Shown piece by piece: positions 47,000 to 49,709 of a DNA stretch of 64,000 bases. The translations under genes were made by a program, and so were the position numbers. The notes beneath the pieces were generated by a model. The model made no database searches, was not told where the DNA came from, and worked only from the letters and a program-made list of their open reading frames with translations. This stretch comes from Escherichia phage HMD-P10: the sequence record PV469800.1; one strand, written 5' to 3'. Numbering within the stretch: the stretch's first letter is position 1; each line of letters starts with the position of its first letter.

Positions 47000-47881
47000 A
47001 TGAAAACATCTATCCGTGTTATAATTCATTCACCGACAAAAGGGTCTCATGAAGAAGAGTTTAACATCATCCAGTTCCCTTCTGGTGAGATTGGTGGACA
47101 CTTTTCACAAGAGCTTGTTGATTTTACTGCTTATGCAGCATCGTCTATCAACAATGTAATTATGATTGTAAAAGGCTACGACAAGGACACATTGTTTGCT
47201 GTGGCACTTGCTAAAGAAGCAATTGATGATTTAATTCCTCATGATTATGCCTTAAAGACTGTCATCTTTTACTACTTACCAAATGCACGATATGACCGTC
47301 ACATGTTTAAAGGTGATGCAGCAGCTTTGAAGGTCTTTGCTAAACAGGTTAATGCAATGGGGTTTGGTGCGGTCTGTGCAGTTGACCCTCACAGTTATGT
47401 GCCAGATAACCTGTTTAACTGTTTCCAAAGTATTCCTCAAAATGAAATTGCAGTCCACTATGCAAATGACCCACTGGTTGATTACTTAGTAGCCCCAGAT
47501 GCAGGTGCTTCTAAGAAGATTGCAGAAACTGCTAAAGAGGTGGATAAGCCATATATCACAATGTCTAAGGTGCGTAACCTTAAGACTGGTGAAATTACTG
47601 GTATGCGAATCCTTGATGATGTTGATTTGACCGATAAAACTGTTATGATTCTCGACGATATCTGTGATGGTGGTCGAACCTTCATAGAAGCAGCTAAACA
47701 TCTTCGTGAAGCAGGTGCAAAACGTGTGGAACTCTATGTAACACATGGCATCTTCTCTAAAGGTGTTGAAAACCTTCTTGACAATGGTATTGACCACATC
47801 TACACTACAAACTCTTTAGGGGAAGCTAAAGACCGTGGTTTAACACATTATGGTCAAGTTACTGTAGCAAACCTTGATTAA
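47000..47881 (+). CDS. Prs-like phosphoribosyl pyrophosphate synthetase-family enzyme
   Basis: 293 aa from ATG 47000; type I PRTase PRPP-binding motif VMILDDICDGGRT. Confidence 0.6.
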   Translation: MKTSIRVIIHSPTKGSHEEEFNIIQFPSGEIGGHFSQELVDFTAYAASSINNVIMIVKGYDKDTLFAVALAKEAIDDLIPHDYALKTVIFYYLPNARYDRHMFKGDAAALKVFAKQVNAMGFGAVCAVDPHSYVPDNLFNCFQSIPQNEIAVHYANDPLVDYLVAPDAGASKKIAETAKEVDKPYITMSKVRNLKTGEITGMRILDDVDLTDKTVMILDDICDGGRTFIEAAKHLREAGAKRVELYVTHGIFSKGVENLLDNGIDHIYTTNSLGEAKDRGLTHYGQVTVANLD

Positions 47882-47889
47882 AACTTTAT

Positions 47890-47913
47890 AGGGGGCTTTT
47901 AAGCCCCATTTTG
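47890..47913 (+). terminator. rho-independent terminator
   Basis: GGGGCTT-TT-AAGCCCC then ATTTTG. Confidence 0.5.
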
Positions 47914-47927
47914 AGAGAGATTAAAAG

Positions 47928-49709
47928 ATGACTAAATCACTTTATGCAGTACCAGCAGGTTTAAACGCAGATGCTTACAAATCTGGTCACATTTACCAGT
48001 ATCCTAGCGCAACAGAATACTTGATGTTCAACCTGACACCACGTAGTGATAAATGGTTTAACAGTCCTTTAGCAATTGACGGTGTGGTGGCTTTTGGTAT
48101 TCAACGTTTTGTTAAAGACTACTTAATAGACCACTGGAACGCCACCTTCTTCGAACGTGACAAAGAAGAAGCAATTGACGAAATCTTAGAAGTCATGAAC
48201 GGTGTTCTGGGTAAAGATGCTATTGGCCGTGAACATTGGGAAGCACTTCACGACTTAGGTTATCTACCAGTTGAAGTATACGCTGTAGAAGAAGGCACAG
48301 TTGTTCCTATGCGTGTACCAATGATTGTCTTCCAGAACACTGTTTCAGGTTTCCATTGGGTAGCGGGGTATCTGGAAGATGCTTTCTCTGCTGAGATTTG
48401 GAAGGCTTGTACCATTGCAACTATTGCATTGCACTACAAACGTATCTGTAAGAAGTGGTCTGACCTTACTTGTGATAACGACTTACATTTGCCTTATCAG
48501 TGCCATGACTTTGCTATGCGTGGTATGTCCGGCTTTACCGATGACGCATTTAACGCTGTAGGCCACTTAACCAGCTTTAAAGGAACTGATAGCTTCCCTG
48601 CTGTATATACAGCTAAACGCATCTATGGACAGTCCTACCCAATCTCTGATATTGGTAGCTCTGTACCAGCCACTGAGCACTCTGTAATGTGTGCAAACAT
48701 TGCTTGGGAAGGTGGTAATGAGTTGATTGAAGAAGAAAGACGCTTTAAAGGTGAGTTACAGACCTTCCGTCGTTTCTTAACAGAAACTTACCCAACTGGT
48801 ATTGCAAGTGTTGTTTCAGACACTTATAACTTTTGGAGAACTGTGTCAGAAATCTTACCAGCACTTCGTAAAGAGATTATGGAACGTGATGGCAAACTGG
48901 TCATTCGTCCTGACTCTGGCGACCCTGTACATATTGTCACAGGTTATAAAGCAATCCACTTAGAGTGTGCTAAAAAGGCTTATTACGAACACCTAAGCAA
49001 GCTGGAAGCCAGCGACACAATGCTGAATGCTGTTCTGAACATGAAGCTTGAAAACATCAACTATGGTATTGCTGGATGGCTACTGTCAGAAGGCTACGAG
49101 ATGGTTGTTGACAGAGAAGACTTTGAAGTTGCTGATACAGTGCTGTTGAAAAATGCTTATATGGTTGGCTCTGCAAATGTTGTAACACGTCCTGTAGCAG
49201 AGATTGATGGGGCTATTAAGACCCTGTATAACATCTTTGGAGGGACTATCAACTCTAAAGGTTTTAAGGTACTGGATGAGCACATCGGCCTTATTTATGG
49301 TGACTCTATCACGTTGGAACGTGCAAACGAAATCCTTAAGCGTTTGTATGAAATGGGTTTTGCAAGCTCTAACGTAGTGTTTGGTGTAGGTTCTTACACT
49401 TACCAGTACATGACTCGTGACACCTTTGCATTTGCTGTCAAAGCAACTCTTGCAAGCATTGGTGGTAAAGAGATTATGCTTGCAAAAGACCCTAAAACAG
49501 ATAGTGGTGTTAAGAAGTCTGCTTTTGGTGGTGTAGCACCTATGTGGGATGGTGATAAGCTGAAAGCTGTAGATGGCTATGGATTCCAGAGCTTTGCAGA
49601 TGTGTTAGAGCATCCAGCTTGTGCTTTACGTTTAGTCTTTAGTGAATCTGAGCAGTTTGGCTACACAACTCTTGGTGATATTCGAAATAATATTGACAAG
49701 CAACTTTAA
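47928..49709 (+). CDS. nicotinamide phosphoribosyltransferase-family enzyme
   Basis: 593 aa; N-terminal DAYKSGHIYQYP matching NAMPT family signature. Confidence 0.75.
   Translation: MTKSLYAVPAGLNADAYKSGHIYQYPSATEYLMFNLTPRSDKWFNSPLAIDGVVAFGIQRFVKDYLIDHWNATFFERDKEEAIDEILEVMNGVLGKDAIGREHWEALHDLGYLPVEVYAVEEGTVVPMRVPMIVFQNTVSGFHWVAGYLEDAFSAEIWKACTIATIALHYKRICKKWSDLTCDNDLHLPYQCHDFAMRGMSGFTDDAFNAVGHLTSFKGTDSFPAVYTAKRIYGQSYPISDIGSSVPATEHSVMCANIAWEGGNELIEEERRFKGELQTFRRFLTETYPTGIASVVSDTYNFWRTVSEILPALRKEIMERDGKLVIRPDSGDPVHIVTGYKAIHLECAKKAYYEHLSKLEASDTMLNAVLNMKLENINYGIAGWLLSEGYEMVVDREDFEVADTVLLKNAYMVGSANVVTRPVAEIDGAIKTLYNIFGGTINSKGFKVLDEHIGLIYGDSITLERANEILKRLYEMGFASSNVVFGVGSYTYQYMTRDTFAFAVKATLASIGGKEIMLAKDPKTDSGVKKSAFGGVAPMWDGDKLKAVDGYGFQSFADVLEHPACALRLVFSESEQFGYTTLGDIRNNIDKQL

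What the first reader, a model, noticed from the sequence alone, without database searches (positions are those of the whole stretch)
47000..49709. Adjacent Prs-like and NAMPT-like enzymes: candidate NAD+ reconstitution pathway
A PRPP-synthetase-family gene (motif VMILDDICDGGRT) is directly followed by a 593-aa NAMPT-family gene (DAYKSGHIYQYP). From the literature as I recall it, phage gene pairs annotated this way can act as a two-enzyme pathway that rebuilds NAD+ from ADP-ribose and nicotinamide (Prs-like ADPR-pyrophosphate synthetase plus NAMPT-like transferase), countering NAD-depleting immune systems rather than performing classical salvage. The NAMPT-like protein is about 100 aa longer than typical NAMPTs, so substrate specificity could differ.
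Basis: partly seen in the sequence, partly recalled or inferred. Interest (0 to 1): 0.7.

Follow-up and report, generated by a model that had tools for sequence, protein, structure and literature searches.

The report
Known phage NAD+ rebuilding operon (NARP1)

Summary
A Prs-family ORF (47000-47881, 293 aa from its ATG) lies 46 nt upstream of a 593-aa NAMPT-family ORF (47928-49709), and both quoted motifs are present.

The window is a Felixounavirus. That is the genus of phage Bas63 (JohannRWettstein), where NARP1 (Adps + Namat) was discovered genetically.

- **Namat:** the second protein is 98% identical (582/593, same length) to Bas63 gp80.
- **Adps:** the first is 77% identical to Bas63 gp79. 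The catalytic lysine and the Prs-type motifs are kept.
- **Synteny:** gene order is the same from gp77 to rIIA.
- **Clamp:** the Namat-specific adenine "selectivity clamp" is present (GSYTYQYMTRD, and K42-W43 in the β1-β2 loop).
- **Accessory genes:** no Macro (Adpp) or RyR (RyDEP) gene is nearby, so this is the basic two-gene form.

The "extra 100 aa" is also in Bas63 Namat. Most of it is an ~84-residue α/β subdomain inserted at a length-variable hot spot. That hot spot is separate in sequence from the clamp, and the subdomain has no recognisable fold match.

The one real difference from Bas63 is a recombinant patch (~46700-47500). It gives gp78 and the first 92 Adps codons a diverged but common allele.

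Verdict: interpretation supported, already known, low interest.

The parts
47000..47881 (+). adps: Prs-family ADPR-pyrophosphate synthetase (293 aa from ATG; the ORF listing extends it to a TTG at 46982)
   Evidence: 77% identical to Bas63_0079; same start context as Bas63; 35% identity, 100 bits to biochemically characterised SPbetaL1 Adps; 29%, 60 bits to E. coli Prs; phrog_619.
47567..47569 (+). Adps Lys190 codon, counterpart of SPbetaL1 Adps K162 (K162A abolishes NAD+ reconstitution)
   Evidence: Alignments. The mutation is described in bioRxiv 10.1101/2024.02.11.579819.
47642..47680 (+).
   Evidence: Aligned with E. coli Prs DDMIDTGGT and SPbetaL1 DDLSSFGGT.
47000..47275 (+). Diverged allele of the Adps N-terminus (codons 1-92; 56% aa identity to Bas63 and FelixO1). 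It is part of a recombinant patch spanning ~46700-47500.
47892..47907 (+). Conserved GC-rich hairpin in the 46-nt adps-namat spacer, followed by AUUUUG and the namat RBS (GAGAGAG 47913-47919)
   Evidence: -11.4 kcal/mol centroid, z = -2.45; same stem in Bas63 with a different loop.
47928..49709 (+). namat: NAMPT-fold nicotinamide ADPR-transferase (593 aa)
   Evidence: 582/593 identical to Bas63_0080; AF2 pLDDT 93.2; best structural match is SPbetaL1 Namat 9W5X/9W5W, E 1e-52, TM 0.95 on target.
48039..48077 (+). Namat selectivity-clamp loop (SCL; residues ~38-50, PRSDKWFNSPLAI, with K42-W43)
   Evidence: Identical to Bas63. The rule 'third residue R/K/Y; if K or Y the next residue stacks on adenine' is from PMC12774641.
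48957..49208 (+). ~84-residue alpha/beta subdomain (residues ~344-427) inserted relative to SPbetaL1 Namat and NAMPT. It is the main source of the extra length.
49389..49421 (+). Namat selectivity-clamp helix motif GSYTYQYMTRD (consensus GS-X-phi-X-phi-X-phi-TRD)
   Evidence: Motif defined in PMC12774641. Conserved in all 41 aligned homologues.
49721..49744 (+). Terminator-like hairpin plus U-run directly after namat; probable end of the transcription unit
   Evidence: -16.6 kcal/mol.

Best explanation
The two genes are the basic two-gene form of NAD+ reconstitution pathway 1 (NARP1) of a Felixounavirus.

Mechanism:
- **Trigger:** a host NADase defence (SIR2-HerA, DSR1/2, Thoeris, SEFIR and similar) cleaves NAD+ into ADP-ribose and nicotinamide.
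- **Step 1:** the Prs-like enzyme Adps uses ATP to pyrophosphorylate the free ribose of ADPR, giving ADPR-PP.
- **Step 2:** the NAMPT-like enzyme Namat displaces the pyrophosphate with nicotinamide and regenerates NAD+ directly. It does not pass through NMN and does not need host NadR or PncC.
- **Selectivity:** Namat prefers ADPR-PP over PRPP because of an adenine-stacking clamp. Here that is K42-W43 in the beta1-beta2 loop and Y490/Y494 in the GSYTYQYMTRD helix.

Shown here: orthology, synteny, and conservation of the catalytic and clamp residues. Inferred from the Bas63 and SPbetaL1 experiments: the chemistry and the anti-defence phenotype.
For: 1. The window is a Felixounavirus, 95-98% nucleotide identity to many FelixO1-like phages. 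Bas63 belongs to the same genus.
2. Namat is 582/593 identical to Bas63_0080 and Adps is 227/293 identical to Bas63_0079. Gene order gp77-gp78-adps-namat-gp81-83-rIIA is the same.
3. [quoted passage not shown] ADPR-PP appears only with the wild-type phage plus the defence. SPbetaL1 Adps acts on ADPR and gave no measurable product in the parallel PRPP-synthetase-type control reaction (that control substrate is named differently in the figure legend, ribose-5-phosphate, and in the text, PRPP). SPbetaL1 Namat makes only NAD+ when given ADPR-PP and PRPP together (10.1101/2024.02.11.579819).
4. In an independent study, single deletions of g79 or g80 reduce plating on Sir2-HerA cells 1e4-1e6 fold (10.1101/2024.10.10.617714).
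5. Residues conserved against SPbetaL1:
   - Adps: K162 -> K190.
   - Namat: D13/Y15 -> D15/Y17, F189 -> F195, R192 -> R198, D215 -> D221, H245 -> H251, R306 -> R327, D308 -> D329, G360-D361 -> G458-D459, T398-R399-D400 -> T496-R497-D498.
6. The SCH motif GSYTYQYMTRD and the SCL K42-W43 are present (rule from PMC12774641).
7. The AF2 model (pLDDT 93.2) matches Namat structures 9W5X/9W5W best, ahead of HdNadV and human NAMPT.
8. Adps falls far below every NCBIfam Prs equivalog cut-off (for example 103 against 296 bits). It is closer to SPbetaL1 Adps (100 bits) than to E. coli Prs (60 bits).
Against: - No enzyme from this window, or from any Felixounavirus, has been assayed in vitro. The Bas63 protein did not purify, so the biochemistry comes from SPbetaL1 homologues that are only 35-43% identical.
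- The first 92 residues of this Adps are only 56% identical to the genetically tested Bas63 allele.
- One NMN-phosphate contact differs (SPbetaL1 S190 is A196 here), and the clamp position phi3 is Met rather than the usual Asn or Val.
- Namat retains PRPP-dependent NMN synthesis in vitro, so some classical activity is not excluded.
Confidence: 0.9

Rival explanations
1. Classical pyridine salvage, as annotated in GenBank. A true PRPP synthetase supplies PRPP to a NadV/NAMPT that makes NMN, and host NadR or PncC then converts NMN to NAD+.
For: Pfam, PHROG and NCBIfam names all say Prs and NAMPT/NAPRTase. NF006629 is even passed above its equivalog cut-off. More than 200 phage records carry these names. 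SPbetaL1 Namat can make NMN from PRPP in vitro.
Against: [quoted passage not shown] SPbetaL1 Adps gave no measurable product in the PRPP-synthetase-type control reaction. The Namat-specific SCH/SCL clamp is present. Adps fails all Prs equivalog cut-offs.
Confidence: 0.04
2. A functionally shifted NARP1. The recombinant Adps N-terminal allele (together with the gp78 allele), or the inserted Namat subdomain, changes substrate range, regulation, enzyme-enzyme docking, or susceptibility to a host counter-measure compared with Bas63.
For: Codons 1-92 of adps and all of gp78 form a sharply bounded patch with saturated synonymous divergence from Bas63 and FelixO1, while the flanks are 90-99% identical. 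Two allele classes coexist in the genus: 154 records at >=90% identity and about 94 at 76-78%. The 84-aa insert folds confidently on its own but has no fold match.
Against: dN/dS across the measurable parts of the patch (adps codons 93-170, and gp78) is about 0.13-0.17, which indicates purifying selection rather than diversifying selection; for adps codons 1-92 synonymous sites are saturated and no ratio could be computed. The Prs-type motifs in the N-terminal half (FPSGE, NARYDR, DPHS) are identical in both alleles. SPbetaL1 Adps does the same job at only about 31-35% identity. The insert is also present in the tested Bas63 Namat.
Confidence: 0.05
3. A NARP2-type pathway: a NAMPT making NMN from PRPP, plus a phage NMN adenylyltransferase encoded elsewhere.
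For: NAMPT-family proteins also operate in NARP2 phages such as KVP40, which matches the window protein at 28% identity.
Against: No cytidylyltransferase or Nudix gene lies among the nine flanking ORFs, and none is annotated in Bas63 positions 1-62000. The partner gene here is Adps-clade, which is the NARP1 signature: 97% of Adps genes sit next to a Namat. The clamp motif is the Namat type.
Confidence: 0.01

Closest known systems
NARP1 of Escherichia phage JohannRWettstein (Bas63), genes bas63_0079 (Adps) and bas63_0080 (Namat), GenBank MZ501086
   Same: Same genus, same gene order and same gene lengths (293 and 593 aa). Namat is 98% identical, including the clamp residues and both insertions. 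The C-terminal half of Adps is about 94-98% identical. The spacer hairpin and the downstream terminator context are the same.
   Different: The first 92 residues of Adps are 56% identical, and the upstream small ORF gp78 is 70% identical. Together these form a recombinant patch at ~46700-47500. This window's allele is the commoner one in the genus.
NARP1 of Bacillus phage SPbetaL1 (GenBank OQ921341; Namat structures PDB 9W5X and 9W5W)
   Same: Same two-gene order and same folds. The catalytic Lys of Adps is conserved. The Namat catalytic core and SCH motif are conserved. It is the best structural match of the AF2 model.
   Different: Only 35% (Adps) and about 43% (Namat) identity. SPbetaL1 Namat is 491 aa and lacks the ~84-aa subdomain and the ~15-aa insert at 258-272. 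Its SCL uses R40 directly, whereas this protein has K42 followed by W43. The SPbetaL1 genes overlap, whereas here there is a 46-nt spacer.
Extended NARP1 variants: NARP1-AP (Adps-Adpp-Namat, Vibrio phage Gary) and RyDEP-containing NARP1 (phage DyoEdafos)
   Same: The same Adps and Namat core.
   Different: There is no Macro-domain phosphatase and no RyR-domain glycosidase in or beside the operon. This version is therefore predicted to fail against aRES, whose product is ADPR-1''-phosphate, and not to recycle cADPR signals.
Classical Prs (E. coli b1207) and NAMPT/NadV (human NAMPT, HdNadV 9KE8)
   Same: The same folds and catalytic chemistry: PRT-type loop, RxDR and His motifs in Prs; the catalytic His and the Arg/Asp ribose contacts in NAMPT.
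   Different: 25-29% identity to Prs, and below all Prs equivalog cut-offs. NAMPTs lack the aromatic GS-X-phi-X-phi-X-phi-TRD clamp. The substrates are ADPR and ADPR-PP instead of R5P and PRPP (inferred from the orthologues).

Membership tests
NARP1 - Adps | Prs-fold protein that belongs with phage Adps rather than with housekeeping Prs | tested here: met
   77% identical to Bas63_0079. 100 bits to SPbetaL1 Adps against 60 bits to E. coli Prs. phrog_619 at 325 bits, like Bas63 at 333, against 193 for E. coli Prs. Fails all NCBIfam Prs equivalog cut-offs. No formal tree was built.
NARP1 - Adps | A Namat gene immediately adjacent (97% of the Adps clade) | tested here: met
   namat starts 46 nt after the adps stop codon, on the same strand.
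NARP1 - Adps | Catalytic lysine equivalent to SPbetaL1 K162 | tested here: met
   K190 in MSKVRN aligns with K162 in GHKQRN.
NARP1 - Adps | ATP-dependent pyrophosphorylation of ADPR to ADPR-PP, with no PRPP-synthetase activity | not testable with these tools
   Shown only for SPbetaL1 Adps in vitro, and by ADPR-PP detection in Bas63-infected cells.
NARP1 - Namat | NAMPT fold with an intact catalytic core (SPbetaL1 F189, R192, D215, catalytic His, R306, D308) | tested here: met
   F195, R198, D221, H251, R327 and D329 are conserved. AF2 model pLDDT 93.2, with top match 9W5X at E 1e-52. One peripheral contact differs (S190 -> A196).
NARP1 - Namat | Selectivity-clamp helix motif GS-X-phi1-X-phi2-X-phi3-TRD with aromatic X residues | tested here: met
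   GSYTYQYMTRD at residues 488-498. phi3 is Met rather than the typical Asn or Val, exactly as in Bas63.
NARP1 - Namat | Selectivity-clamp loop with Arg, Lys or Tyr at its third position; if Lys or Tyr, the next residue stacks on adenine | tested here: met
   S40-D41-K42-W43, identical to Bas63 Namat, which the paper uses as its example of the Lys type.
NARP1 - Namat | Preference for ADPR-PP over PRPP, forming NAD+ directly | not testable with these tools
   Shown for SPbetaL1 Namat.
NARP1 (whole pathway) | Confers escape from NAD+-depleting defence systems | not testable with these tools
   Shown for the Bas63 orthologues in two independent studies. Not tested for this phage.
NARP1-AP / RyDEP-extended NARP1 | Macro-domain ADPR-1''-phosphatase (Adpp) or RyR-domain glycosidase within the operon | tested here: not met
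   Nine flanking ORFs (44347-50606) gave no Macro or RyR hit in Pfam, even at E <= 0.1, or in PHROGs.
Ribose-phosphate diphosphokinase (Prs) equivalogs | Score above the NCBIfam equivalog cut-off | tested here: not met
   Best equivalog NF002095 scores 103 bits against a cut-off of 296. Only the broad subfamily model TIGR01251 is just passed, at 118.3 against 113.
NARP2 (Nampt + Nmnat) | A phage-encoded NMN adenylyltransferase partner | tested here: inconclusive
   None among the flanking ORFs, and none annotated in Bas63 positions 1-62000. The rest of the window and the unseen ~23 kb of the genome were not scanned.

The most novel reading that the evidence does not exclude
The ~84-residue alpha/beta subdomain inserted in Felixounavirus-type Namat has no fold match. 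It emerges a few residues after the ribose-binding R327/D329 strand. This subdomain, together with the recombinant gp78/Adps N-terminal cassette, might be a functional adaptation rather than neutral decoration. Possible roles are a docking surface that channels the labile ADPR-PP from Adps to Namat, a regulatory element, or a way to escape an unknown host factor that targets NARP1.
Probability: 0.1. Interest if true: 0.45.

Novelty: already known. Interest (0 to 1): 0.15.

Why it matters
It does not open a new question. It shows that a sequence-only reader can recognise NARP1 correctly where public annotation still says "ribose-phosphate pyrophosphokinase" and "nicotinamide/nicotinate phosphoribosyltransferase". 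That mislabelling affects more than 200 Felixounavirus records, and an NCBIfam equivalog model passes above its cut-off. Practically, the phage is predicted to resist SIR2-HerA, DSR, Thoeris and SEFIR-type NAD+ depletion. Lacking Adpp, it should remain sensitive to aRES. This is relevant when choosing FelixO1-like phages for therapy or diagnostics. The uncharacterised Namat insert and the two Adps alleles are small open points.

Tried and rejected
- **Finding Bas63:** accession guesses MZ501111, MZ501080, MZ501084 and MZ501085 were other BASEL phages. The right record is MZ501086. OM236515 was phage SPR, not SPbetaL1. SPbetaL1 was found by tblastn with the PDB-derived sequence.
- **Accessory genes:** I looked for a Macro phosphatase or RyR glycosidase that would make this an extended NARP1. 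There is none.
- **Adps structure:** I looked for a published Adps structure to test substrate-binding residues. None is in the library or in the PDB; the best PDB hits are ordinary Prs enzymes.
- **Namat insert:** I tried to identify the 84-aa insert.
  - Pfam gave nothing.
  - Foldseek against BFVD gave nothing at E <= 0.001.
  - The afdb50 library was unavailable.
- **Intein or homing-endonuclease remnant:** I considered this for the insert and rejected it. The insert is conserved as a folded subdomain across many phage Namats. The homing endonuclease seen in relatives sits in the intergenic spacer instead.
- **Diversifying selection on the Adps patch:** I considered this and rejected it. 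dN/dS is about 0.13-0.17 where it can be measured (adps codons 93-170, gp78); adps codons 1-92 are saturated at synonymous sites.
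Full report
**Observation**

The + strand carries an ORF at 46982-47881 and an ORF at 47928-49709 (593 aa). The first ORF's mechanical TTG start overlaps the upstream gene. The ATG at 47000 is preceded by GAGAG and aligns exactly with the annotated start of Bas63_0079. I therefore take the gene as 47000-47881, 293 aa.

The two quoted peptides are present at 47642-47680 and 47970-48005. Family assignments:
- Gene 1: Pfam PF00156 and PF14572. It scores just above TIGR01251 (118.3 against 113 bits) but far below every Prs equivalog cut-off.
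- Gene 2: PF04095 and PF18127, plus NF006629.
- PHROGs: phrog_619 (7e-97) and phrog_448 (3e-201).

**Where the window comes from**

Megablast places the locus and 24 kb around it in FelixO1-like phages of Escherichia, Salmonella and Shigella at 94-98% identity. That genus is Felixounavirus. It also contains Escherichia phage JohannRWettstein (Bas63).

**Link to the characterised system**

The NARP1 paper (bioRxiv 10.1101/2024.02.11.579819) began from a "Prs + Nampt" operon, genes 79-80 of Bas63. Its main results:
- Deleting the operon made Bas63 sensitive to SIR2-HerA and let NAD+ fall.
- ADPR-pyrophosphate appeared only with wild-type phage plus the defence system.
- The Bas63 protein did not purify, so the biochemistry used the SPbetaL1 homologues. 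Adps pyrophosphorylates ADPR and gave no measurable product in the parallel PRPP-synthetase-type control (the legend names that control substrate ribose-5-phosphate, the text PRPP). Namat joins ADPR-PP and nicotinamide to give NAD+, and it prefers ADPR-PP over PRPP.

An independent knockout screen found that deleting g79 or g80 alone lowers plating on Sir2-HerA cells 1e4-1e6 fold (10.1101/2024.10.10.617714).

I located Bas63 as MZ501086 and compared directly:
- Window Namat against Bas63_0080: 582/593 identical, with no gaps.
- Window Adps against Bas63_0079: 227/293 identical.
- gp77: 96% identical. gp78: 70% identical.
- Gene order through rIIA is the same.

This is the orthologous operon.

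**Residue-level tests**

The structural paper on SPbetaL1 Namat (PMC12774641; PDB 9W5X and 9W5W) defines a conserved NAMPT-like core plus an adenine "selectivity clamp". The clamp is the beta1-beta2 loop (SCL) and the helix motif GS-X-phi-X-phi-X-phi-TRD (SCH).

Mapping through the alignments gives, SPbetaL1 to window:
- D13/Y15 -> D15/Y17
- F189 -> F195
- R192 -> R198
- D215 -> D221
- catalytic His -> H251
- R306 -> R327
- D308 -> D329
- G360-D361 -> G458-D459
- SCH = GSYTYQYMTRD
- SCL = S40-D41-K42-W43, the Lys-type arrangement that the paper illustrates with Bas63

For Adps, K190 matches SPbetaL1 K162, whose mutation to alanine kills the pathway. The Prs-type motifs FPSGE, NARYDR and DPHS are kept. 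Adps scores 100 bits against SPbetaL1 Adps and 60 bits against E. coli Prs.

An AlphaFold2 model of the window Namat (pLDDT 93.2) matches 9W5X/9W5W best (E 1e-52, TM 0.95 on the target). HdNadV and human NAMPT rank behind it.

**The extra 100 residues**

Relative to SPbetaL1 Namat, the window protein has:
- about 84 extra residues at ~344-427;
- about 15 extra at 258-272;
- 4 extra in the SCL;
- a slightly longer C-terminus.

Bas63 Namat has exactly the same features, so the length does not set this copy apart from the tested one.

In a 41-sequence alignment of clamp-bearing homologues, these two sites are length-variable hot spots: 16-99 residues and 10-48 residues across the segments spanning them. 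The SCH motif is invariant in type across the same alignment.

**Which NARP1 variant**

Later work describes two extended forms:
- operons with a Macro-domain ADPR-1''-phosphatase (NARP1-AP), which overcome aRES (10.64898/2026.01.28.702374);
- operons with an inserted RyR-domain glycosidase (PMC13232231).

None of the nine ORFs between 44347 and 50606 matches either. This is the basic two-gene form.

**Operon anatomy**

Terminator-like hairpins at 46162-46184 and 49721-49744 bracket gp77-gp78-adps-namat. The 46-nt adps-namat spacer holds a GC hairpin (47892-47907, about -11 kcal/mol). The same stem is present in Bas63 with a different loop. In FelixO1 this spacer is occupied by an HNH endonuclease gene.

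**What differs from Bas63**

Nucleotide identity to Bas63 is 90-99% across the region but drops to 60-80% between ~46700 and ~47500. Adps codons 1-92 are 56% identical in protein, with saturated synonymous sites. gp78 is 70% identical. Bas63 and FelixO1 share the other allele at 99-100%.

The window's allele is the commoner one. It is 100% identical in Salmonella phage SLAM_phiST56 and at least 90% identical in 154 records, against about 94 records at 76-78%. dN/dS of about 0.13-0.17 where it can be measured (adps codons 93-170, gp78; codons 1-92 are too saturated for a ratio), together with identical catalytic motifs, argues for an old recombinant haplotype under purifying selection rather than a change of function.

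**Rivals**

- **Classical Prs/NadV salvage.** This is what the database names say. It is contradicted by the Bas63 genetics, the SPbetaL1 biochemistry and the clamp motifs.
- **NARP2.** It needs an NMN adenylyltransferase, and none is nearby.
- **A functionally shifted allele or insert.** This cannot be excluded without experiments, but it has no positive support.

**Verdict**

The system is already known and was discovered in this very genus. Interest is low. The remaining small unknowns are the function of the Namat insert and the meaning of the two Adps/gp78 alleles.

Noticed in passing
window 46700-47500: A sharply bounded recombinant patch relative to Bas63 and FelixO1. gp78 (46711-46989) is 70% identical in protein and Adps codons 1-92 are 56% identical, with saturated synonymous divergence, while the flanks are 90-99% identical. 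Two allele classes coexist across the genus: 154 records against about 94.
   Followed up: partly
[not shown]
   Followed up: partly
window 47892-47907; L006 4138-4153; L010 2116-2607: The adps-namat spacer carries a conserved GC hairpin followed by AUUUUG. It could be an attenuator or an RNA stability element. In FelixO1 and many relatives, an HNH homing endonuclease gene sits in this same spacer.
   Followed up: partly
window 46203-46718: This is the homologue (96% identical) of Bas63 gp77, which is reported to counter the Ec67 retron. That paper calls it GIY-YIG, but here Pfam finds nothing and PHROGs gives only a weak HNH-endonuclease hit (1e-4). It probably shares a transcription unit with NARP1, so the locus looks like an anti-defence cluster.
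   Followed up: partly
window 50635-53001: A 788-aa rIIA homologue (Bas63 g84). The PhageMaP preprint reports that g84 and g85 (rIIA/rIIB) counter the QatABCD defence system.
   Followed up: no
L011 2211-5491 (Klebsiella michiganensis chromosome; same arrangement in L012): Enterobacterial chromosomes carry an Adps-like gene (48% identical to window Adps, against 28% to E. coli Prs) next to a 496-aa protein bearing the Namat motif GSFTYQYNTRD. The pair is transcribed divergently from an NrtR regulator (Nudix + NrtR winged helix). From my own knowledge, not checked here, NrtR is an ADP-ribose-responsive regulator. This suggests an ADPR-induced housekeeping NARP1. No paper in the library mentions both NrtR and NARP1.
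   Followed up: partly
(phrog_12872): A 547-position PHROG profile matches Adps over its first ~225 positions and Namat over positions ~236-534. This implies that fused Adps-Namat proteins exist in some phages.
   Followed up: no
window ~44743-44778 and 45200-45700: Relative to Bas63, the window lacks about 270 nt, corresponding to bas63_0072, just upstream of nrdG (44778-45263). It also has a second diverged patch (35-66% nt identity) covering small hypothetical ORFs.
   Followed up: no
(NF006629): The NCBIfam equivalog model for 'nicotinate phosphoribosyltransferase' passes this Namat above its cut-off (465 against 405 bits). More than 200 Felixounavirus records annotate the pair as Prs plus NAMPT/NAPRTase. 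This is a systematic misannotation of NARP1.
   Followed up: no
window 18001-28000: GC skew turns negative (-0.15 to -0.21). The stretch probably corresponds to the minus-strand block of replication and nucleotide-metabolism genes (thymidylate synthase to DNA polymerase) annotated at 23.7-33.5 kb in Bas63; the mapping between window and Bas63 coordinates was estimated from the rIIA offset, not aligned.
   Followed up: no
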